Part shown: piece after piece, positions 1,343 to 60,210 of the stretch
How positions within the stretch are numbered: the stretch's first letter is position 1
How the letters are laid out: the number at the start of each line of letters is the position of its first letter
The notes under the pieces: model-generated
Told to the model about the DNA's origin: nothing
The model's input: the letters and a program-made list of their open reading frames with translations, nothing else
Database searches by the model: none
Made by a program: the position numbers and the translations under genes
Origin: Prorocentrum cordatum
Taxonomy: Eukaryota
Assembly: GCA_963575745.1 (NCBI GenBank)
Contig: CAUYUJ010000325.1
Coordinates: forward strand, 496,001-560,000
DNA length: 64,000 nucleotides
Direction of reading: 5' to 3'

Positions 1343-1737
1343 AACGAACGCGCACATTCGCATAACGAGACCCTATGCCCACTGCGGCCGCGAACGTTCT
1401 TCGGGGCGTGATCCACTCAGAGCAACCGCTCCGCTTTCGCATGCGCACAGTAAGACACCACTTCAGCACTCTTCTTGAGCGCTCGCTCTGGCAGAGAGTT
1501 CACCAGGGCACCGATCAGTGGCCCATGGCATCTAGAATGCCGCGCCCACCTTCGCCTCACCAGCGTCAGAAGCGCGGTTCATCTTGCTTGCAGGCCCCGC
1601 AGGGCTCTGGTCTTGCTGGCGAGTCGGTCTTTGGGCTATTCCCCAGAAAGGGCCGACTTGGCCGCTGGCAGCGATTCAATGGTTTGATGTCACGAAGCGT
1701 CTGTGCCGCAATATGGTACAATGGTGCGCGGTTGCGC

Positions 1738-2100
1738 AAGGACGTTTCGTGGCTCTGTAGGGGTCTCCGCCGAAGGCCCCAGTGGCTGCACTCGCATGCG
1801 GTCCCCCCGCCCAGGGCAGCGCTACGCGGTTTCATCGGGAGCTCCACCGAAGGCCCCAGTGGCTGCACTCGCATGCGGCTCCCCTTCTCAGGACAGCGCT
1901 TCGTGGCCTCATCGGGAGCTCCACCGAAGGCCCCAGTGGCTGCACTCGCATGTGGGTCCCCCACCGGGGACAGCGTTTCGTGGTCCCATACGGAGTTTCT
2001 TACTCATCCTACTGCCCCTCCTCTTCCTGCTCCTCCTCCCCCCCTGCTCCTCCTCCATCCTCGTTTGTGCCACCCTCCCTCTCGCGCCCTCTCCTCCCCG
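1738..2100 (-). repeat. About 77-bp minisatellite array (family A, ~3 units) followed by a CT-rich tract
   Basis: Repeated GAGCTCCACCGAAGGCCCCAGTGGCTGCACTCGCATG, in opposite orientation to the array at 2225-2612. Confidence 0.8.
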
Positions 2101-2159
2101 TGGCCGTGACGGGATTGCAGGCGGCGCACATCATGTTTTTTCCGTACAGGAAACTTGGA

Positions 2160-2676
2160 AAATTAGCCTGGCAATGGATCCAACCATATGCAGGTGTGGG
2201 TTCCGCAATGTTGAATCTCTTCTTCGATGGAGCTCCCCATGGCTCCACGAAACGCTGTCCTGGGTGGGAAAACCGTATGCGAGTGCAGCCATTGGGGCCC
2301 TCGGTGGACCTCTCGATTGAGCCGAGAAACGCGGTACTGGGCAGGAGAACCGCATGCGAATGCAGCCACCAGGGTTTTCGGTGGAGCTCCCGGCCACGAA
2401 AGGCTGTCCTGGGCGGAGGATCCGCATGCGAGTGCAGCCACTGGAGCCTCCGGTGGAGCTCCCTACGGGGCCACGAAACGCTGTCCAGGGTGGGGGGACC
2501 GTATGCGAGTGCAGCCACTGGGGCCTTCGGTGGGGCATCCGATAGGGACACAAAGCGCTGTCCTGGGTTGGGGAACTGCATGCGCGTGCAGCCGCTGGGG
2601 CCTTCGGCGGAGAAACGCAAGCGGTCAGCAGGGGGGAGCAGGAAGAGGAGAATAGAAGAAGCTAGCTGGGGTGGTT
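2160..2676 (+). mobile_element. Family A element: 5' end plus ~77-bp array, 3' hairpin missing
   Basis: Starts AAATTAGCCTGGCAATGGATCCAACCATATG, then ~5 units of CCACGAAACGCTGTCCTGGG...GCATGCGAGTGCAGCCACTGGGGCC, then a purine-rich tract. Confidence 0.7.
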
Positions 2677-3334
2677 AATTAATGAGGAGTGAGGAGGAGC
2701 ATGAGGAGCACGATGAGATCCGCCCGATGAATTGGAATAGCAGGCAGGAAAATCTGAACTGGCTTGGGACTGCGCGGCATTCCCAACAAGACATTTTGAG
2801 AGGGGAACGGGGACCCAACACGTCGGCGTATACTATGGAACTCTCGTTTTGAGGCGAATTGAGAAACATTGAGACTCATTGAGAGAAATTGAGATCGTTT
2901 GAGATAAATTGAAATATAATTCTCCGTTCAAACCGTGGATTAAGAGAAATTGAAACGAGAAAGGCGGTCAAGTTGAGGACAATTGAAAACGGTTGCGGTG
3001 TCCAATGGAAGTTTTTCGCAAGGGTTTGACGGCAATGCGATTTGGGAGCATGAGGAAAGCAGCAGAAGGATGGGCGGCAGGAGAAGCAGACGGCGAGGAC
3101 CCGATGGCATCGACCATGGCAACTGGAGCCAAAATATATTTCCCAAACGAGGGCAAACGGTGGAGGATGCAAAGGGCTGTCTGGCAGGGTTTCTGCAAGT
3201 CTTCTCAGGGGCTGCCGCCGCCCCTTTCGCCGCAGAGCGCCGCATGCATCGGGCCCCGCTTACCCAGCGAAGAGCAACACATGTTCACCGTGGAAGTACA
3301 TCAGGTCCACGCTCTCGCGGCAACGATTCCTCGC

Positions 3335-4533
3335 AAATTTGCCTGGAGATGGCCCTCACCATATGCAAATGTGGGTTCCGCAATTATGAATACTTCATCT
3401 TCAATGGATCTCCACACGGGTCCACGAAGCGCTGTCCTGGGTGTGGGAACCGCATGCGAGTGCAGCCACTGGGGCCCTCGGTGGAGCTCCCGATCGAGCC
3501 GAGAAACGCGGCCCTGGGCAGGGGAACCGCATACGAGTGCAGCCATTGGGGCCTCCGGTGGAGCTCCCTACGCGGCCATGACGCTGTCCTGGGTGGGGGG
3601 TACCGCATCCGAGTACAACCACCAGGGCCTTCGGTGGAATCCCCGTTTGAACCGAAAAACTTGGTCGTGGTTGGGGGGACCGCATGCGAGTGCAGCCACT
3701 TGGCCTTCGATGGAATTTCCGATTGAGCCGAAAAACGCGATCCTGGGCGGAGGGAGCCGCGTGCGAGTGCAGCCACTGGGGCCTCGTCGGAGCTCCCGAC
3801 GGGGCTACGAAGCGCTGTCGTGGGCGGAGGGAGCAGCACGCATGTCGGGCCACATGGGCCTTCGGCGGAACTCCGGATGAGGCCACGAAGCGCTGGCGTG
3901 AGTGCAAGAAGCGCATGCGAGTGCAGCAACAGGGGCCTTTTGCGGGGCTCCCCACGGGGCCACGAAGCGCCTTCCTGGGTCGGAGGTCCGCATGCTAGAG
4001 CAGCCGCCGGAACCGTCGGTGGAGCCCATATATGGGGCCACGTAGCGCTGTCCTGGGTGGTAGAACCGTATGCGAATGCAGCCACCGAGGCCTTCGGTGG
4101 GACGCCCCATGGGGCCACGAAGTGCGGACGTGGGTGGGGACGCCTGGGGACGCGCCTGCGAATGCAGCCGCCGGGGCCTTCTGTGGAGTTCCCGACGGGG
4201 CCGCGACATGCGATCGTGGGCGGAGGGGATCGCATGCGAGTGCAGCCGCTCGGGTTCTAGGTGGAGCTCTTTTTCGGGCTACGAAACGCCCGCCTGAGAG
4301 GGGGAACCCCATGCTACTGCAGCCGGTGGGGCTCTCGGTAGCAACCCCAATGGCGCCGCGAAGCGCAGTCCTAGGCGGGGGAGCCGCAGGCGAGTGCAAC
4401 CGCTGGGGCCTTCGGCGGAGCTCCCTACAGAACCCTAAAGTGGGGAAGGAAAAAGGGGGCGAGGAGGTGAGGAGGAAGGAACGCGGAAGACTCTCTTCGA
4501 AACGAGGACCTAACACCACGAAATGGTTGAGAG
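3335..4533 (+). mobile_element. Family A element, apparently complete, with ~13 units of the ~77-bp repeat
   Basis: 5' AAATTTGCCTGGAGATGGCCCTCACCATATG, array ~3410-4430, purine-rich spacer, 3' CTCTTCGAAACGAGGACCTAACACCACGAAATGGTTGAGA. Confidence 0.75.
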
Positions 4534-6588: not shown

Positions 6589-7556
6589 CTGCGGACCAGA
6601 CACCTATGCGGATTCCTACGCGGACACCTACGCTGAACCCAGTGCGCACGGCGGCAGTACCCGGAGCGCACTGGGGGGGGGAGCGTTACGTCAAAGGGGG
6701 GGGGGGGAGCGGGGGCAATGACGCCCGTCATGCCCCAAGCCATAAATAAATGGCCTCCAACATAGTTGGAAATCACCCTGGGAGAGAAGCAAACCACGGC
6801 GGCGGATGAGTTCCGCCCTCCTCGAAGATCTTGACGGCGTATTTGCTCTGGCAGGTGTCCGCCTCGTCGCTCGTCTTAGCGACCACGAGGTAATTGAACA
6901 CGGAGAGCAAAGATGCAAATGTTGCCGGACACGAAAAGGATGATGAGGGAAGCGGGCCGTGTCGGCAAAGGGTAATGGAAGGGCGCTGGAGCTCCGCTAC
7001 CAACAATGAAAAGGGATGCGTTCTTCGCAGAGGCGAACACCACAGTAAAACACGCGTTTAACACAGGCACAATCAAATGCAACCTGCCGCATCCCCGGGC
7101 CAAAACGGCAATGGAAAAAAAAGGCGACTGGACAGGGCAACGGAATTAGGAACTATCAGTACGTTACCTCTCGCATGGAGGGGGAAGGAGGAGGAGGAGA
7201 GGGGGGAAAGACGAAGGAAAAGGAGGGGGGAGGAGGTGCAAGAGGAGGAAGAGGAGGAGGAGAAGGAAGAAGAGGAGGAAAAGGAAAACGAGGAGGATGA
7301 GGAGGAGGAGGAAGACGACGACGAGGGCGAAGCGCCTTCTGGAACGCCTCTCATGGGGAGGGCACGACCAGACCCCAGCACGGGCGAGGGGCGCCCCAGC
7401 TGCACAAGGCCCCGCCCCCCCCCCCACCGAGGCCGAGGGCGCGGCCGCAGGCGTCCACCGCGGAGCTGCGCGCGGCCAAAGAAGGCTGCAGGGCGGCACG
7501 GTCCATGCCAGCGAGAACCTGAGAGGGGGCGCCAGGTACGAGCCAGCCTCTTCCTT

Positions 7557-15222: not shown

Positions 15223-15812
15223 CGTGAATGAATGGCCGTCGCTAGCAGTAATAGCGCCGCCGCGCCCTCAGGCGGGAGTCGAGGCGCGCGACAATTCCGC
15301 CGTCGATCTGCCCCCCGAAGCCGAAAGAGAGAAAGAAGAAGACACCAAAAACAAAAAAAAAAAACAATGACCCAGACCGCTGCGCGGGGGGCAGCGGGGG
15401 GCGGTGGTGGCACGTTTTTTTTTTTGGGGGGGGGGGGAGACAACCGCGACCCGCGGCACTAATATGCGCCGAGCCTAGAATAAACGAACTACCAACGCCA
15501 AGATGTGCTTAGAAGTGGCGCTGCGAAATCTATTGCGCGGGCCTGGGCAACCAGAACCATCAGCAGAATCCATTGCGCAGGCCCCGACATTCATAATCGC
15601 AACACATGACGCGCAATATTCAAATATTCGACCCTGGTCTGATATACCCTAATTATGCCCACCTGTTCTCGCCAATTCCACAAACCAAGACGTTCTGCAC
15701 AGCTCAGATACATCCTAATCCGCGCCATCGGGTTCGACGCGGATTCCCCCCGCGGGGGGCCCTTTAGTGGAGGGCAACAATAAGACTCCAGTGAAGGAGG
15801 CGCGCATGAACA

Positions 15813-17208
15813 TTTCCCAACCATCCTATGGCGTTGGGTCGTCGTTTTGAAGAGACAGCGCCCCGCGTTCACTCCTTCCTCCCTCTGTCCCCTCCCTCCC
15901 CCCACTACCACAGCGCGCCCCATCGCACGTTTCGTGGCCCCATCCATAGGGAGCTCCACCGAGGGCCCCAGTGGCTGCGTTGGCATCGCAGCACCGCGCA
16001 CATTTCGGCACACCCCTCAGACGTTTCGTGGCTCCACAGGGAGCTCCACCGAGGGCCTCAGTGGCTGCGTTGGCATGGCGGCACCGCACGCATTTCGGCA
16101 CACCCCTCACACGTTTCGTGGCCCCATAGGGAGCTCCACCGAGGGCCCCAGTGGCTGCGTTGGCATGGCGGCACCGCACACATTTCGGCACACCCCCCAC
16201 ACGCTTCGTGGCCCCATAGGGAGCTCCACCGAGGGCCCCAGTGGCTGCGTTGGCATGGCGGCACCGCACACATTTCGGCACACCCCTCACACGTTTCGTG
16301 GCCCCATAAGGAGCTCCACCGAGGGCCTCAGTGGCTGCGTTGGCATGGCTGCACCGCACCCATTTCGGCACACCCCTCACACGTTTCGTGGCCCCATACG
16401 GAGCTCCACCGAGGGCCCCAGTGGCTGCGTTGGCATGGCGGCACCGCGCCCATTTCGGCACACCCCTCACGCGCTTCGTGGCCCCATAGGGAGCTCCACC
16501 GAGGGCCCCAGTGGCTGCGTTGGCACGCCGGCACCGCACGCATTTCGGCACACCCTTCACGCGCTTCGTGGCCCCATAGGGAGCTCCACCGAGGGCCCCA
16601 ATGGCTGCGCTGGCATGGCGGCACCGCACCCATTTCGGCACACCCCTCACACGTTTCGTGGCCCCATAGGGAGCTCCACCGAGAGCCCCAGTGGCTGCGT
16701 TGGCATGGCGGCACCGCGAACATTTCGGCACACTCCTCACGCGTTTTGTTGCCCCATAGGGAGCTCCACCGAGGGCCCCAGTGGCTGCGTTGGCATGGCG
16801 GCACCGCACCCATGTCGGCACACCCCTCACACGTTTCGTGGCCCCGTAGGGAGCTCCTCCGAGGGCCCCAGCGGCTGCGTTGGCACGGCGGCACCGCACC
16901 CATTTCGGCACACCCCTCACACGTTTCGTCGCCGAGGGCCCAGGTCAACGCTTCGTGGCCCCATAGGGAGCTCCACTGAAGGCCCCAGTGCTACCGCCCG
17001 CATGCGTCCCGCACGCCCAGGACAGCGCTTCGTGGCCCCATAGGGAGCTCCACCGAAGGCCCCAGTGCTACCGCCCGCATGCGTCCCGCACGCCCAGGAC
17101 GGCGTTTCGCGGCGCACCTTTCGTGGCCCCATAGGGAGCCCCACCGGAAGCGGCACCCACAAAGCGATATTCACAATTGCATATGGTTTGGTCCTTCGCC
17201 AGGATAAT
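15813..17208 (-). mobile_element. Family A element, complete: two 77-bp units plus eleven 90-bp units
   Basis: Minus strand starts AAAAATTATCCTGGCGAAGGACCAAACCATATG and ends CTCTTCAAAACGACGACCCAACGCCATAGGATGGTTGGGAAA. GAGGGCCCCAGTGG-like motifs fall at an exact 90-bp period from 15961 to 16861. Confidence 0.85.
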
Positions 17209-53244: not shown

Positions 53245-54724
<1,480 letters not shown>

Positions 54725-54746
54725 TCCGTAGCCATTTTGGCTCAAG
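54725..54746 (+). other. Complete dinoflagellate spliced leader (DinoSL), retroposed
   Basis: TCCGTAGCCATTTTGGCTCAAG is an exact match to DCCGTAGCCATTTTGGCTCAAG and is not followed by a GT donor. Confidence 0.97.
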
Positions 54747-54749
54747 TCA

Positions 54750-54766
54750 GTAGCGTTTCGCTCAAG
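54750..54766 (+). other. Degenerate relic spliced leader
   Basis: GTAGCGTTTCGCTCAAG versus SL GTAGCCATTTTGGCTCAAG, 3 nt downstream of the intact SL. Confidence 0.65.
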
Positions 54767-54945
54767 GGCTTGACATTGTGGCAAGGGGTTCTGCGGCCTC
54801 AAATGCTCGAGCCTCCAGCAGCCTGCCCAGGCAGGAGACCCCTCTCTTTTCATCTTCTCATTCCCATACTGTACTGCGGGTTGCCCGCACTCTTTGCGAC
54901 CATCCTGTGCTGTAAGGGCGCCTCGGCACTTGCGGCCCAGGCGCG

Positions 54946-56113
54946 ATGGTTCCTTCTCTCTCGGGCCATCGGAAGCAAAGAAGGGCTTGGGCATCTCCGT
55001 GGTACTGCAAACACTGCTGGTCACCGTCGGGTAAGGACAAGTAAGTGGTGGAACAGAGCTGATTGCGAGAGCTGTACTAAGTGTGGTCAGCACAAACCAT
55101 CGGCGTTTGCGGGGCATAAGCAGCCGCTTCTACCGTCGAGGAGTGTTTCGTATGATGACGCTGAGCAGGGTTCCAATACTGCGACAGCGAAACTGGAGGA
55201 GGAGCTCAAGAAGTGCAAGGACGAGCTGGCGCTGCTCAAGTCAGCTGCTGCCCGCGCGCCTGACCGCATGGAGGTGGATGACGGGGCCGTGGACCCTGCG
55301 CTCCAGGGCGGGATGGAGGGCGCGCTGCGCAAGCAGCTGGCAGACACGTCCTCGCACATCGAGGCGCTCAAGGACATCCAGAACCCAGACGTCGTCGAGA
55401 CGCTGGGCAAGCTCCGTGCGAAGCAGCAGGACTTGCGCCAAAGGTTAGCGTCGGGCAAGCCACTGGATGTGCGTCTCAGGGAGATCGGGTTTCAGCACCA
55501 TAAGTTGGAGAAGCGGCGTGAGAAGCAGGAGGCGGCCGTCAAGGCAGCTCAGTCCGCGCTCGAGGAGGCCGAGCGCGACCTGCAGGAGGTGCAGGAGGGG
55601 CTTCGTGACACGTCGAAGGGGATCCTTGAGCTCGAGGAGACACGGCGGCAGCTGGTGGCGTCCACGCCGAGGCCTGCAGAGGGGGCGGTGGCCTCGCTTG
55701 AGCAAGTCCCCCCGCAGGCGGCAGGTCTCTCGGTCGCGAGGCTGGGCGAGATGCTCAGCAGTTTTGGCGGCACGCAGTCGATGGCTGAGAAGCTGCACGC
55801 AGTGTTGGAGGAGGTGCGCCAGGCCAAGGAGAAGCACAAGGAAGAGCGCCGGCGGGCTGAGGCTGAGCGACAGCAGGCCCCTGCCGCTCCCGATCCAGGA
55901 GAGCCGGCGGGGGCCGCGGCGTCAGCAACGGCCCCAGCCGCCAGCGCCGCGTTCATCCCCAATCCTGGCACTGACTCGCTGGACGCGCTCAAGGCGTTTG
56001 TCGAAAGTGTTAATGTTGAAGTGTCGTCGGAAGATTCCGAACTACGTGAGGCAGCCAAACGCGCAGGTGACAACTTGGCCCTCTTTGTCAAGCGGGCGGA
56101 AGTCACGGCTTAG
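54946..56113 (+). pseudogene. LINE ORF1: N-terminal C4 (RanBP2-like) zinc finger plus coiled coil, one frameshift
   Basis: ATG at 54946 reads ...PWYCKHCWSPSGKDK. Removing a 4-bp duplication (AAGT AAGT, 55039-55046) joins WWNRADCESCTKCG and the long heptad-rich frame ending at 56113. Confidence 0.75.
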
Positions 56114-56129
56114 TGGGGGCTCTAGGCGA

Positions 56130-56902
56130 TGCAGGCATGCAACCTTTGCTTTCATGTTTTTAGTCTCGGCACATCATATCGCAGAAATAAATAGAGTCGT
56201 GACAACGAATACCATTTCGCATGGACCATTGGCCACTATCTTGGAGTCGAAGCACACATCATTGAGTGACGGCGCCATAGTGGCCATGGCCCAGGAGCAT
56301 CATCGTTTACCCGAGCAGCTTCCTGATTTCCAAGTGCGCGTTACCGCGGCAGGATTTCATGGAGTTTGGGCGCCAGCCACCCCGGGCGAGGGAGGCGGTT
56401 CGCACGGCGGCGTCGCCGTGCTTGCGCCTAAGAGGATTCAAGTGACGGCGCCACCTTTGCTGCCTAGCTGCCTCATCAGCCCAGGGCAAGCGGTGGCAGG
56501 ACACATCCACACGTGTTGCAAGAAAGGGTGTGTGGCGATCTCGGCTTCTCTTCATACTTCGGCCCAGCGAATGTTAGCTTGCTGACAGAGATCGCTGCCT
56601 ACGTCAACCGCGTCCACAGCCTTGGCTACGAGCGGGTCATGGGAGGCGACTTCCAGATGCACCCTGACCAGATCTCGTCTTGGAGCGCTGGTATCGGAGC
56701 GGTGGTTGCGGCATCTGCAGGCCCCACGTGTATTCAATCGGTTCCAGGCGCTAAGATAGATTTCTTCGTGGTCAGCACCAACCTCGCCATCAGGACCAAG
56801 GCTCCCTTAGTGTGTGATGACATTGACACCTCTCCACATAAGCCAGTGGCGATGGAAATAGGTGGGCCTAAGACAGTCTCGTGGTGCCGAGTTCCCAAGT
56901 AG
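56130..56902 (+). pseudogene. LINE ORF2 apurinic/apyrimidinic-like endonuclease domain
   Basis: Motifs in order: VTTN, AMAQEHH, GGVAVLA, VMGGDFQMHP, IDFFVVS, SPHKPV. Frameshift near 56550. Confidence 0.85.
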
Positions 56903-57479
56903 CCGAACATATTCCCGACAGTTGCCAAGCCTGGTTGTGGCAGACATCCCAGGCTCTGGCCAAATTTCCATGCGCGGCTGACGCAGGCTGCGGGCGCAGA
57001 TGATTTGCGCGAGTTCTGGGATACTTTCCTTCACGGGATGGAAGCAGAGTGTTGCGATCGACACGATGTCGTCGAGGATGCAGTTCAACCATCTGCCAGG
57101 CATGGCTGTCCGCGGGAGATGCAGCGGCGGCGCTTGCAGTTCGCCCCGAGACATCGACTTCCGCAGAAGAGCTCCGTGCAGGCGGCTTGGAGCGTGGCGG
57201 CCAGGTGGGCCCGTCACCTGCGAAGTGTCGATGCGGCGATTCAAATTTATCTCGTCTCTCGGTCGACGATGGAGATCAGGAGCGACGGCTCCAGCGCGCA
57301 GCTCGCGTGCCCTACGAGGTGGAGAAGTTCTGCCAGAGGATCTGCTCCCACGGCTGGGTCTCCGCGCACCCGGGCGACATCGCGGCGGGGTTCTTCGGGG
57401 CGGGCACTGACGTCCTGGGCGACCCGTCCTTCGCGGACCTGGTGCAGCGGATCTTGGGCAGGGCTGCCCTCCACGAGGC

Positions 57480-58635
57480 AGTCTTTCTTGCGGTGAAAAC
57501 TGAGGAGTGGCAGGCTTGGGTCAGGCCCTCTTTTTCGAGCGGAGCTCGAGCAGCTCACCGCTACTCCAAAACCAAGGCGGTCCAGGAAGCCGTGGGAGCC
57601 ACCGAGCGGGTCCAACCCTTCGAGCTGGCGGATGAGTGCTTGTCCGAGCGGGGTTCGTCTTGGGCCACCCGCAGAGCTCCTGAGCTTCCTGGAGACTATT
57701 CGTCTTGGGAGCCCCATGCCGGACATCGCTGTGCCAGCGCTGCGTGCTGCGATAGGCCAGTTCGCAGAGCGAACGGCAATAAGGTTTCCGTCAATACATC
57801 CTCGGTCGCTGATGTACCTTTCGGGCGAGGCCCTCGAGGCCTTTGCGTCATTGCTGCATCGGCGCGAGCCGGTAGGAGCGTGGCCTTCGCGAAGGCTCGT
57901 ATCGAAGCTGATCAGGCTGCCAAAGCCAGATGGGGGCCATCAGCCGCATTGCGCCGTTAGATTCGCTGATATGGATCTGGCCCAGGGTCCGCAGGCCTGT
58001 CTCTGAGCGCTGGGAGTGCGACAATAGGACGGAGGAGTTCTGGGGTAGCGGGCTGGGGAGGAGTGCGAGTGATTCAGCTTTTGATTTAAACCGTTCGGCT
58101 GAGATTGCCAGGGCCAAAGGTTGGCACTGGATAAGCGTACTTCTCGACATGGCCAAGTGCTGCGAAAAAACTAGGTTGTCAGTTCTCTTCGACATTTACA
58201 GAGCAGTAGGCTTTCCTCTGAGGTTAGGATGGATGTTGATCCAATCGTAGATTACGCCCAGGTGTATTGAAGCTCACGGATCGCTGTCTGAATTTTATGT
58301 CTCGTACCAGGGGGACCTGGCTGGGCGCGGCCACGCGCGTGCCAACATGTCAGCTGTTATGTTAAATCCTGTCAGGCAGACCATTTCCAGATGTCCGCCC
58401 ATCAACGCTCGGGCTTCCACGGGCGACGTTTCTCTCCAGTGGCAGGGGCCAGACGTGCAAAATGCAGAGCTGGCGTTCGCTGCGGTCCGAGATCTGCGCC
58501 TCCGACTCACCACGGTCGGCCTTCTGCTGCAGCCGAAAAAGCCTGGTTTCCTGGCCCACTCGATCGCTGTCGAAAAGAAAGTCAGTCTCTCGGCGCGACG
58601 GTTGGGGATTGAAAGCAAGGCGAATTTTAACACAC
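57480..58635 (+). pseudogene. LINE ORF2 reverse transcriptase, heavily decayed
   Basis: LPKPDGGHQP, IAPLDSLIWIWPRVRRP..WE, FWG..GRSASDSAF, VLLDMAKCCEK and QGDLAG. The YxDD motif is degraded to STGD; multiple stops and frameshifts. Confidence 0.8.
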
Positions 58636-58639
58636 AATA

Positions 58640-59593
58640 CCCAAGCCCTCCTCGTGGGAAGCGTGGGTCGAGCCCCTTGCTCGATGCAGATCTGGGTGAA
58701 CGTCATGCTGTTGCGTATCCTGGTTAAGATGTTCTGGTGTGTTCTGGTCCAGAGCCTACAGACAGACGACTTCGAAGGGGATATCGGAGCGTCGCCAATT
58801 TTACAGAGTTCGAGTTCGACGATTAGTGTTACTGCACCATCCTTCTCTGAGGACTTCCATGAAGATCCGCCGGTGGGATGAGGTGATAAAAAAAGAGGGT
58901 TTGCAGGGCTCGAAGGTGAAGGGGCGCCGACGGGACCGTGCCAATGAGATTCAGAAAATGCAGGAGTCACTACGTTCACTCGCTGGGAGAGTGGGAGGTG
59001 GCTACCAAACGAGACGGCAGCAACAGACCAAGCTATATCGGGGCTCCCGACTGCTGGATGACGTCCGAATGCTGATCAAGAAGGTCGATGAGATGGGTTA
59101 CAGACCCACGAATGAGCAGGTCCGAGAGAAGCTCCAGCAGCTCTTGGGCAAGCCCACTACGAAGCAGAAGCAGCAGCAGCAGCCCAAGCAACAGCAGCAG
59201 CAGCAGCACCACCACCACCACCAACAGCCGAAGAATCTCAAAGTTGTCAAGAGTCCGCGGAGTGATGACTGCCCGATCTGGACAGCGAAGAGGCTGCAGG
59301 ATTGTCATTATGAGCGGCCTCATTTGATGGTGTGTCAGAATGAGAAGGAGCACGACGCTACACGGAGATGGTTGGACGCCCTGGGGGGCGCAGAGCGATC
59401 GGCCACTATCATCATTTTCAATGTGCAGCGCATCCTGGAGGGCTCGGTCTTCGGAGATACGCTGGTGGACGCCCCCCAGGGCATAGGAACGATGACGCAG
59501 AGGGGCTTGGTTCTGGAGCTGGGCGCAACTCCACCAAAGAAGAAAGGCCCCCCCCCCCCCAACGGCGCGCAGGACGACGTGCCTATGGGCTAG
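58640..59593 (+). mobile_element. Unrelated coding fragment (basic/Q-rich, possibly ORF1 of another element) interrupting the LINE
   Basis: 284-aa open frame 58739-59593 with no RT motifs, lying between the RT core and the RT C-terminal motif. Confidence 0.4.
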
Positions 59594-59862
59594 CGGCGGA
59601 GTTGATGGGCGCTAACGGTCGGGCCCATGTCACTGCTCATATTAGCACCCATCGCGACGTTAGCTACGATCACATAGTTGACGCTACAGCGCCGCCGGTT
59701 GTCCGTTATTGCTGTTGGGTCTGCGATCGTAGAGCGAACGACTCCGATATGCGCAAGGCTTGGCAGCTCGCTTTCGACACGCTTGCTGCGAAATCATCGT
59801 GGGCCCAGCTCCGAGGCCCTATTGGGGCCGTCATTTTGAGCCTCCGCCGTATCCACTGGCAC
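59594..59862 (+). pseudogene. Resumed post-RT region of the LINE ORF2
   Basis: MRKAWQLAFDTLAAKSSWAQLRGPIGAVILSLRRIHW resembles the W..V.GP..A...L.R..W motif recalled from dinoflagellate LINE ORF2 proteins (not searched). Confidence 0.6.
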
Positions 59863-59979
59863 GGAGGAGGTGAGGACCAGAGTCGGGGGCGGAGGAATGG
59901 CGCATGACGGGCGCCTGGCTGGGCCGCGATCGGCTCGGGAAGAGGCAATCGTCCTTCAGGCCACGTACTCTGGGAGCGC

Positions 59980-59996
59980 ATATACAGATACATACA

Positions 59997-60039
<43 letters not shown>

Positions 60040-60070
60040 ACCACATATCACATATACGTACATATACATG

Positions 60071-60102
<32 letters not shown>

Positions 60103-60173
60103 TACCACCTTGCCTCTTATAGACATGCATGTATGTATGTGTATATGCGCATGTACACTTACCCGATGTATGC

Positions 60174-60207
<34 letters not shown>

Positions 60208-60210
60208 AGA
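59980..60210. repeat. (TA)n/(TG)n AT-rich microsatellite region
   Basis: Seen directly. Confidence 0.9.

What the first reader, a model, noticed from the sequence alone, without database searches (positions are those of the whole stretch)
54725..59862. LINE retrotransposon capped by a complete spliced leader: mobilisation through an SL trans-spliced RNA
Seen: a perfect 22-nt DinoSL directly precedes a ~200-nt 5'UTR, a zinc-finger/coiled-coil ORF1, an APE endonuclease and an RT. The upstream flank is pure microsatellite. Established: DinoSL is trans-spliced onto dinoflagellate mRNAs, and genomic SL copies mark retroposed mRNAs. Inference: this copy was reverse-transcribed to the very 5' end of an SL-bearing LINE transcript. 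The element may then need no promoter or ribozyme of its own, being cut out of read-through transcripts by the host trans-splicing machinery. This differs from SLACS/CRE/NeSL elements, which insert into SL-RNA genes and use a restriction-like endonuclease.
Basis: partly seen in the sequence, partly recalled or inferred. Interest (0 to 1): 0.85.

Follow-up and report, generated by a model that had tools for sequence, protein, structure and literature searches.

The report
Dead LINE capped by spliced leader
A decayed jumping gene (a LINE) in a dinoflagellate genome begins exactly with the 22-base leader that these cells splice onto their messenger RNAs, so it was copied from a processed messenger RNA, and two unrelated elements elsewhere show the same thing.

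Summary
An exact 22-nt DinoSL sits at 54725-54746, the only copy in 64 kb. It is followed by a 199-nt leader, an ORF1 (Cys4 zinc ribbon plus coiled coil), an APE endonuclease and a probable RT. The upstream flank is microsatellite. The copy is dead: ORF1 has a 4-bp duplication frameshift, and ORF2 has at least six frameshifts and two in-frame stops.

1. The 20 nt after the SL are a decayed, full-length second SL, so the lineage went through at least two SL-capped generations.
2. ORF1 is a LINE ORF1. Six Prorocentrum cordatum gene models are collinear with ORF1 followed by APE.
3. Two unrelated elements found through a DinoSL scan also start with the SL. One (L142) is intact, with RanBP2-finger ORF1, APE, RT and an RNase H-like motif read by eye. 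It has the same (GA)n microsatellite on both sides, so the SL lies inside the insert.

Insertion into an SL-RNA gene and a retrogene-plus-LINE chimera are both rejected. Independence from a promoter remains an inference. Copies of this same family could not be tabulated, because no genome is held. Six full-text searches found no explicit description, only an implicit hint (Song 2017). Interest is moderate to high: a new variant of a known kind.

The parts
53246..54724 (.). 5' flank: compound microsatellite (CTCCTC/TCATCA/TCC)n. On the + strand the last ~70 nt are almost pure pyrimidine.
   Evidence: TRF rows 53246-54486, 53430-54657 and 54662-54727; sequence.
54725..54746 (+). Complete DinoSL, 22 of 22 (D = T): the 5' end of the retrotransposed unit.
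   Evidence: Exact match, the only one in the window at <=3 mismatches, chance 0.01; sequence.
54747..54766 (+). Decayed full-length relict SL, TCAGTAGCGTTTCGCTCAAG: 17 of 22 SL positions kept, 3 mismatches, a 2-nt gap, aligned end to end.
   Evidence: Local score 23 after masking the true SL. No 40-nt tile elsewhere on either strand of the window reaches 23; the maximum is 22, over 8528 tiles.
54774..54785 (+). Possible third, truncated relict (CATTGTGGCAAG against SL positions 9-22). Weak.
   Evidence: Score 15. 388 of 8528 tiles reach 15, so it could be chance.
54767..54945 (+). Rest of the 5' UTR; it belongs to the repeat family.
   Evidence: Logan contigs at >=80% identity give depth in bins 54700-54875 and 54876-55051.
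54946..56113 (+). ORF1: Cys4 zinc ribbon (about 55000-55084) plus coiled coil. Broken by a 4-bp AAGT duplication at about 55039-55046, which shifts frame 1 to frame 2 and gives TAA at 55042.
   Evidence: P0001 (73% identity) reads ...SPSGKDKWWNRADC... across the break. tblastn shows two frames, 54976-55041 and 55043-55423. 29 relatives were found; alignment A1.
56154..56899 (+). Probable ORF2 start (ATG 56154) and APE endonuclease domain, with a frameshift near 56545.
   Evidence: tblastn of P0013, P0041, P0003, P0040, P0017 and P0035 onto 56052-56785, E down to 7e-27. Pfam Exo_endo_phos on those proteins. Weak ExoIII match in PDB, E 0.29.
56900..57670 (+). Linker between APE and RT. In-frame TAG at 56900 and frameshifts near 57298 and 57650.
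   Evidence: Collinear tblastn of P0003, P0040 and P0041 onto 56510-57301 and 57295-57639. Position 56900 reads C (CAG) in 3 of 3 other contigs.
57671..58724 (+). Probable reverse transcriptase, degenerate. Frameshift near 58000 and TAG at 58248.
   Evidence: ESM Atlas: 26 of 30 hits in the RVT_1 set. blastp of 58002-58250 to L142 residues 1717-1785, inside its Pfam RVT_1 domain, E 0.003. Pfam and PDB negative.
58725..59907 (+). C-terminal part of ORF2, with at least two more frame changes. The last homologous stretch is 59590-59862. The 244-aa open frame 58859-59593 is of uncertain meaning.
   Evidence: P0040 residues 2410-2502 match 59590-59862, E 1e-8. Repeat-family contigs cover these bins.
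59908..60210 (.). Unresolved 3' boundary, then a (TA)n/(TG)n microsatellite. No A-run and no TSD.
   Evidence: One Logan contig departs from the window at 59941.

Best explanation
Positions 54725 to about 59900 are a dead but 5'-complete copy of an APE-type non-LTR retrotransposon of a GC-rich dinoflagellate. ORF1 encodes a RanBP2-like zinc ribbon plus a coiled coil. ORF2 encodes APE, RT and a C-terminal region. The nearest named relatives are predicted proteins of Prorocentrum cordatum. Its template was a mature, SL-trans-spliced mRNA of the element, and reverse transcription ran to the first base of the leader, so the DNA copy starts with the whole 22-nt DinoSL. The parent locus itself began with an older SL, now the decayed relict at 54747-54766. 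SL-capped RNA is therefore the regular transposition intermediate of this lineage and not an accident. What is shown: the SL, the relict, ORF1-APE linkage, multi-copy status, and the same architecture in two unrelated elements. What is inferred: the 5' end of the element's RNA is made by host trans-splicing of whatever transcript runs through a copy, using an AG at or just upstream of the relict SL. On that reading the element need not carry its own promoter or 5' ribozyme, and the SL gives its RNA the same capped 5' end as host mRNAs.
For: The SL is exact and unique in the window. It is not followed by GT, whereas the six SL-RNA-gene-like hits elsewhere are followed by GTAC. A full-length decayed SL abuts it, with score 23; no tile elsewhere in the window reaches that. 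ORF1 has 29 relatives. Six P. cordatum gene models (P0003, P0013, P0017, P0035, P0040, P0041) are collinear with window ORF1 followed by APE. Four of them have Pfam Exo_endo_phos at E<1e-3, two above the curated cut-off. 81 and 27 short contigs from two runs, at 80-99% identity, cover all 30 and 26 of 30 bins, so the whole unit including the 5' UTR is repeated. Independent cases come from an exact-SL scan of MAG contigs, which gave 20 unique SL sites: 6 SL-gene-like and 14 retrocopy-like. In L133/L142 the order is (GA)n, SL, 93-nt UTR, ORF1 with Zn_ribbon_RanBP, an uninterrupted 2536-codon frame with Exo_endo_phos and RVT_1, 38 nt, A6, (GA)n. In L136 the order is unique flank, SL, UTR with a relict (score 20) just before the ATG, ORF1, then ORF2 starting with Exo_endo_phos. 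No ribozyme or SL/5S family was found.
Against: No second copy of this same family could be examined at its 5' junction. No genome is held, and Logan laying masked 54700-54736. The SL could therefore be particular to this copy's sub-lineage. The relict is full-length and not cut at the AG of SL position 7, as in the classic recycling pattern. That requires an acceptor exactly at the parent's 5' junction. No TSD, poly(A) or defined 3' end was found here, and compared with L142 the element lacks the CCHC and RNase H-like part. The RT call is weak. No RNA run holds the locus, so transcription and trans-splicing of any copy were not observed. The window's own ORFs are broken, so nothing shows that this family is active.
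Confidence: 0.8

Rival explanations
1. SL capping is real but incidental. The element has an internal promoter like most LINEs, and its transcripts receive an SL only because every Pol II transcript in dinoflagellates does. The SL then plays no part in freeing the element from the need for a promoter.
For: Nothing here measures transcription. SymbioLINE elements are described with conserved 5' UTRs (passages of PMC5890265). The 5' UTR of this family is conserved enough to recruit contigs at >=80% identity.
Against: An internal promoter that starts transcription at the element's first base leaves no upstream acceptor for trans-splicing. A new SL placed 5' of a complete old SL, and 79 nt of extra leader ahead of the relict in L136, both indicate transcripts that started upstream of the element.
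Confidence: 0.3
2. One-off chimera. The LINE reverse transcriptase switched template at the 5' end of an uncapped LINE RNA onto an SL RNA or another SL-bearing mRNA, as in U6-L1 chimeras. The SL would then not reflect trans-splicing of the LINE RNA.
For: Template switching by LINE RTs is established (recalled, no call). Tandem full-length SL-SL is what a jump from one SL end to another SL could give.
Against: A jump to SL RNA would carry intron sequence between SL and LINE, and none is present. The two SLs differ in age, 0 of 22 against 5 of 22 changed positions. The same SL-then-UTR start is seen in three unrelated elements.
Confidence: 0.08
3. An SL-tagged host retrogene (ORF1) lies by chance next to an unrelated 5'-truncated LINE.
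For: ORF1 has no Pfam family. SL-tagged retrogenes are reported as more than 20% of genes in Symbiodinium genomes (passages of PMC5585692 and PMC6050394).
Against: ORF1-like and APE are collinear in six P. cordatum gene models and in L142. There is no poly(A) between ORF1 and ORF2, and the spacer is 40 nt. ORF1 is as repeated as ORF2.
Confidence: 0.03
4. Site-specific insertion of a LINE into an SL-RNA gene, of the SLACS/CRE/NeSL type.
For: A genomic SL abuts the element.
Against: There is one SL in 64 kb and no SL, 5S or snRNA family hit. The whole 22-nt exon lies upstream with no intron (GT...) after it, unlike the six SL-gene-like loci. The upstream flank is microsatellite. The endonuclease is APE-type. 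In L142 the same (GA)n lies on both sides of SL plus element.
Confidence: 0.02

Closest known systems
Dinoflagellate SL-tagged retrogenes ('mRNA recycling', Slamovits & Keeling 2008). That paper was not read. It is known here from passages of PMC3229502, PMC6050394 and PMC5585692.
   Same: A genomic DinoSL at the 5' end marks reverse transcription of a trans-spliced mRNA. Tandem relicts that decay downstream mark repeated rounds.
   Different: The recycled RNA here is the retrotransposon's own bicistronic mRNA, not a host gene. The relict is full-length and not truncated after SL position 7. The literature read treats RT genes among SL-tagged genes only as a GO enrichment ('RNA-dependent DNA replication', PMC5585692) and favours Ty1/copia as the source of RT (PMC6050394).
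SLACS / CRE / CZAR / NeSL elements (recalled; only a search listing of PMC3636483 was seen).
   Same: Non-LTR elements found physically joined to a spliced-leader sequence.
   Different: Those elements insert into SL-RNA genes at a fixed exon position with a restriction-like endonuclease, and are flanked by gene halves. Here there is an APE endonuclease, a whole SL at the 5' end only, microsatellite flanks, and the SL inside the insert (L142).
L1Tc/ingi (Pr77 promoter plus HDV-like ribozyme) and R2-type ribozyme processing (abstract starts seen: PMC1874656, PMC3185411, PMC4035085; R2 recalled).
   Same: The same problem is solved: making a defined 5' end for an element that is co-transcribed with host sequence, in an organism with SL trans-splicing.
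   Different: Per its abstract, L1Tc yields unspliced transcripts and cuts itself out with a ribozyme. Here no ribozyme family is hit and the 5' end is the host's SL.
SymbioLINE-Dnmt and other Symbiodinium LINEs (passages of PMC5890265).
   Same: Dinoflagellate APE-RT LINEs with ORF1 plus ORF2 and no poly(A) tail.
   Different: Those are described with TSDs and conserved 5' and 3' UTRs, a DNMT in ORF1, and no mention of an SL. Here ORF1 is a zinc ribbon plus coiled coil, with the SL at the 5' end.

Membership tests
APE-type non-LTR retrotransposon (LINE) | Apurinic-like (EEP) endonuclease at the N-terminus of ORF2 | tested here: met
   56178-56785 matches the Exo_endo_phos regions of P0013, P0041 and P0040, E down to 7e-27. 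Pfam directly on the broken pieces found nothing.
APE-type non-LTR retrotransposon (LINE) | Reverse transcriptase domain downstream of the endonuclease | tested here: inconclusive
   ESM Atlas gave 26 of 30 hits in the RVT_1 set. blastp to the RVT_1 region of L142 gave E 0.003, collinear with the other matches. Pfam, PDB and the word-index search were all negative.
APE-type non-LTR retrotransposon (LINE) | ORF1 upstream of ORF2 on one transcript, linked in other copies | tested here: met
   Six P. cordatum gene models are collinear with ORF1 then APE. The spacer is 40 nt with no poly(A).
APE-type non-LTR retrotransposon (LINE) | Dispersed multi-copy family | tested here: met
   81 and 27 contigs from two runs at 80-99% identity lie over the whole unit. 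There is no second copy in the 64-kb window.
APE-type non-LTR retrotransposon (LINE) | Target-site duplication and a 3' tail | tested here: not met
   No shared k-mer of 8 or more between the flanks and no A-run. The 3' end is unresolved. L142, by contrast, has A6 and the same (GA)n on both sides.
SL-tagged retrocopy (mRNA recycling) | Genomic DinoSL directly 5' of the transcribed body, not part of an SL-RNA gene | tested here: met
SL-tagged retrocopy (mRNA recycling) | Relict SLs truncated at the AG of SL position 6-7 | tested here: not met
   The relict 54747-54766 aligns to SL positions 1-22. Only the weak third relict is truncated.
SLACS/CRE/NeSL site-specific SL-gene elements | Insertion inside an SL-RNA gene, with gene sequence on both sides and tandem SL arrays | tested here: not met
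   There is a single SL in the window, microsatellite upstream, no GT intron and no Rfam hit.
SLACS/CRE/NeSL site-specific SL-gene elements | Restriction-enzyme-like endonuclease C-terminal to the RT, and no APE | tested here: not met
   An APE-type domain is present. No REL-endo search was run.
Ribozyme-processed LINEs (L1Tc/ingi, R2 type) | Self-cleaving ribozyme at the 5' end of the element RNA | tested here: not met
   No ribozyme family at E<=1 in 54400-55300. The only hits are sub-threshold snoRNA models on the microsatellite. Unknown ribozymes cannot be excluded.

The most novel reading that the evidence does not exclude
Dinoflagellate LINEs are promoter-less passengers of host transcription. 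Any read-through transcript is cut at the element's 5' edge by SL trans-splicing, and the relict SL (or AG-rich microsatellite flank) of each new copy supplies the next acceptor. The element thus regenerates a host-like capped 5' end every generation and can pick up upstream flank (5' transduction). The same APE-RT machinery, which lands in microsatellites and copies SL-mRNAs to their first base, would be the long-sought maker of the thousands of SL-tagged retrogenes, rather than Ty1/copia.
Probability: 0.4. Interest if true: 0.75.

Novelty: new variant of a known kind. Interest (0 to 1): 0.6.

Why it matters
Dinoflagellate genomes are full of SL-tagged retrogenes, but the passages read say that the enzyme behind them is unknown and lean towards LTR Ty1/copia elements (PMC6050394, PMC5585692, PMC12014239). 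A LINE whose own full-length copies begin with the SL shows two things. An APE-RT machinery in these cells does copy SL-capped mRNAs to their very first base. It also integrates them, in several cases at microsatellites, just as some SL-tagged retrocopies do. That gives a concrete candidate and a testable signature for the retrogene machinery. It also adds a third way, beside internal promoters and 5' ribozymes, for a non-LTR element to obtain a defined and translatable 5' end: borrowing the host's trans-splicing. A specialist may find this half-expected, since all mRNAs there are trans-spliced. Even so, six full-text searches did not find it spelled out.

Tried and rejected
- No whole genome is held for the window, so the family's 5' junctions could not be tabulated.
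- blastn and tblastn found no second copy in the window.
- Pfam on ten window pieces, and on read-through pieces with X at the stop, found no APE or RT.
- PDB phmmer on four pieces gave only a weak ExoIII match, E 0.29.
- Word-index protein searches: ORF1 at near lengths, none; shorter, one hit, P0001; RT piece at longer lengths, none.
- Metagenome scans: window ORF1, none. P0002 gave one locus, L001, which is a bacterial coiled-coil protein without an SL, a false lead.
- A viral-contig scan with L142 ORF2 found none.
- The look-up of sequencing runs listed no RNA holder, only two DNA holders with small shares.
- Read laying skipped 54700-54736 as repeat, and only 16 of 110 pieces are listed. 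It therefore says nothing about the SL junction or about contigs bridging ORF1 and ORF2.
- ESM Atlas on the 979-aa ORF of L128 gave nothing usable.
- The search of earlier findings by place, words and sequence returned nothing.
- No TSD or A-run was found.
- Rfam at gathering and at E<=1 gave no relevant family.
- The sigma-70 scan is irrelevant to a eukaryote.
- The RT/APE was not placed in a non-LTR phylogeny, because no reference clade sequences were at hand.
- Of the 14 retrocopy-like SL sites in MAG contigs, 10 had ORFs tested in Pfam without any retroelement domain, and 2 were too short to test.

Full report
**What is there**

The 22-nt dinoflagellate spliced leader TCCGTAGCCATTTTGGCTCAAG is exact at 54725-54746 on the + strand. 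It is the only match in the 64-kb window even at 3 mismatches, against 0.01 expected by chance. Upstream, from about 53246 to 54727, lies a compound (CTC/ATC/TCC)n microsatellite. The window is about 0.6 GC throughout.

Downstream come 199 nt of leader and an ATG at 54946. The ORF1 frame ends at 56113, a probable ORF2 ATG follows at 56154, and about 3.7 kb of broken ORF2 run to about 59907.

**ORF1**

Only one close relative exists in the 5.8-billion-protein index. This is P0001, 148 aa and 73% identical. It reads ...PWYCKHCWSPSGKDKWWNRADCEKC... without a break. The window needs two frames for the same stretch (54976-55041 and 55043-55423). The cause is a 4-bp AAGT duplication at about 55039-55046 that creates a TAA at 55042. 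ORF1 is therefore not intact.

An exhaustive HMMER search found 29 relatives at E<=1e-3, seven of them at E<=1e-10. Those that carry names are predicted proteins of Prorocentrum cordatum. An alignment of 18 sequences shows a conserved W-x-C-x2-C...N...C-x2-C motif followed by a coiled-coil body. hhalign places that motif on the Pfam-validated RanBP2 finger of L142 ORF1 (prob 77%, E 2e-5). Pfam itself does not call the window family.

**ORF2**

Pfam and PDB searches on the window's pieces fail. However, six P. cordatum gene models (P0003, P0013, P0017, P0035, P0040, P0041) match the window collinearly. Their ORF1-like part matches 54952-55873, and their next part matches 56052-57639 in three successive frames. 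Four of them have Pfam Exo_endo_phos at E<1e-3 in exactly that part. Two of these, P0013 and P0040, are above the curated cut-off.

So ORF1 is linked to an APE in other, diverged members of the family. That removes the retrogene-plus-LINE rival.

The RT is less certain. Three lines support it:
- The ESM Atlas puts 26 of 30 hits for 58254-58724 in a set carrying RVT_1.
- 58002-58250 matches residues 1717-1785 of L142 ORF2, inside its RVT_1 domain (E 0.003). This match is collinear with weaker APE and RT matches.
- Motifs such as LPKPDGGH and LLDMAKC can be read by eye.

Counting frames, ORF2 has at least six frameshifts and in-frame TAGs at 56900 and 58248. The one at 56900 reads CAG in 3 of 3 other contigs.

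**Repeat status**

No genome is held and the window has no second copy. Two public DNA runs hold small shares of the stretch. When laid at 80% identity or more, 81 and 27 short contigs cover 30 and 26 of the 30 bins, most of them under 90% identical. This is a diverged multi-copy family that includes the 5' UTR and ORF1. The SL junction itself was masked by the tool, and the contigs are too short to bridge ORFs.

**A second SL**

After masking the true SL, the next 20 nt (54747-54766, TCAGTAGCGTTTCGCTCAAG) align end to end with the SL. 17 of 22 positions are kept and the score is 23. None of 8528 40-nt tiles elsewhere on either strand reaches 23.

A third, truncated look-alike at 54774-54785 scores 15, which about 4.5% of tiles reach, so it may be chance.

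A perfect SL in front of a decayed one means that the parent locus already began with an SL. The lineage therefore passed through SL-capped RNA at least twice. Unlike the classic relicts, this one is not cut at the AG of SL position 7 (passages of PMC3229502). The last acceptor must then have lain exactly at the parent's 5' junction.

**Independent cases**

Scanning two collections for the exact 21-mer gave 119 stretches in IMG/VR and 20 in MAG contigs, or 158 unique sites after de-duplication.

Of the 20 unique MAG-contig sites:
- 6 are SL-RNA-gene-like, followed by GTAC and a shared motif.
- 14 are retrocopy-like.

Two of those 14 are LINE 5' ends.

L133/L142 is a 9096-nt contig at 0.72 GC. 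Its order is:
- (GA)n microsatellite.
- SL (21 of 22).
- A 93-nt UTR.
- ORF1 with Zn_ribbon_RanBP (31.1 bits, cut-off 27).
- An uninterrupted 2536-codon frame with Exo_endo_phos and RVT_1, both above cut-off. CCHC and RNase H-like motifs were read by eye.
- 38 nt, A6, and then (GA)n again.

Because the same microsatellite resumes after the element, the SL lies inside the inserted unit.

L136 (0.43 GC) has this order: unique flank, SL (D = A), a 96-nt UTR whose last 14 nt before TCG-ATG are a relict (score 20), a 266-aa ORF1 unrelated to the window's, and an ORF2 that opens with Exo_endo_phos (32.9 bits, cut-off 24.5). The contig ends there.

Of the other 12 retrocopy-like sites, ten had ORFs with no retroelement domain and two were too short to test.

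**Rivals**

- Insertion into an SL-RNA gene fails on every feature tested.
- A template-switch chimera would carry SL-RNA intron sequence, or would give two SLs of equal age. Neither is seen.
- No ribozyme family is hit at E<=1 around the 5' end.
- One question stays open: whether the element also has a promoter of its own. No RNA run was listed, which is not evidence either way.

**Mechanism proposed**

The shown steps are that SL-capped element mRNA serves as template, that reverse transcription is complete at the 5' end, and that this recurred over generations and in other families.

The inferred steps are transcription from upstream of a copy, trans-splicing at an AG at or near the relict, and hence no need for an own promoter or ribozyme. 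The 79 nt between the SL and the relict in L136 would be captured parental flank.

**Literature**

Searches, and passages read in 12 papers, gave no description of an SL-capped LINE. The closest points are these:
- Song et al. 2017 (PMC5585692, passages) report that 'RNA-dependent DNA replication' is enriched among genes with DinoSL relicts. The authors read this as activity of retrotransposons.
- PMC6050394 favours Ty1/copia as the RT source.
- de Mendoza et al. 2018 (PMC5890265, passages) describe SymbioLINEs with TSDs and conserved UTRs, and do not mention an SL.

Supplements were not opened and may list such genes. Slamovits & Keeling 2008 and the SLACS/CRE/NeSL literature are recalled, not read.

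**Verdict**

The finding is a new variant of known kinds, namely LINEs and SL-tagged retrocopies. It is partly predictable from first principles, but it bears on the open question of what drives retroposition in dinoflagellates.

Noticed in passing
L002-L120 (IMG/VR loci), e.g. L014, L025, L052, L057: Giant-virus bins carry many exact DinoSL 21-mers encoded in their DNA: 138 unique sites. The base before the 21-mer is A in 129 of 137. In 120 of 136 the upstream 25 nt have GC of 0.24 or less, with recurring AT-rich motifs. The first ATG lies a median 47 nt downstream. One bin (951 kb, CheckV 94%) has NCLDV capsid genes, E 8e-40. This looks like viral genes with a genome-encoded spliced leader right behind a promoter (SL mimicry). 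A search for 'giant virus' + dinoflagellate + 'spliced leader' found 16 papers (15 listed), none on this by title or abstract.
   Followed up: partly
L121, L124, L133/L142, L135; window 53246-54724: SL-capped retrocopies often abut a microsatellite on their 5' side: (GT)n, (TCA)n, (GA)n (on both sides in L142), (ACAG)n, and (ATC/CCT)n in the window. That is 4 of the 14 retrocopy-like SL sites in MAG contigs, plus the window. This may reflect a target preference of the integrating machinery, or assembly breaks at repeats.
   Followed up: partly
L128, around 7001-7021 (- strand): A solitary SL 21-mer lies between two copies of the 19-nt TTTTGCTTGCAGGCGTGAG, as if the SL alone had been inserted with a target duplication. 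The downstream ORFs of 482, 399 and 979 aa have no Pfam family.
   Followed up: partly
L025 7001-7121; L065 4200-4269; L131: There are tandem full SLs at a 50-nt period in a giant-virus-bin contig. L131 shows a classic SL followed by two truncated relicts (CCATTTTGGCTCAAG twice).
   Followed up: no
L126, L127, L132, L138 (MAG contigs): These are SL-RNA-gene-like loci: the SL is followed by GTAC and a shared ...GCAGGCCTTTTTGC-like motif, sometimes in pairs. They show that 'bacterial' MAGs contain dinoflagellate contigs.
   Followed up: no
P0035, P0040 (P. cordatum gene models): Gene predictions fuse LINE ORF1/APE with host domains. P0035 carries EFTUD2 and GTP_EFTU, and the 3800-aa P0040 carries RRM_1. 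These are probably annotation chimeras caused by unmasked LINEs.
   Followed up: no
L142 1358-4890: About 3.5 kb lie between ORF1 and the APE domain. The region is open in the ORF2 frame but Arg-rich and internally repeated. A second 694-codon frame (1672-3756) overlaps it. Its nature is unknown.
   Followed up: no
window 15784-17043: A 90-bp tandem repeat array is present. Its units score up to 22 against the SL by chance-level similarity (CCCATTTCGGCAC). Many overlapping long open frames across the window are an effect of the 0.6 GC content.
   Followed up: no
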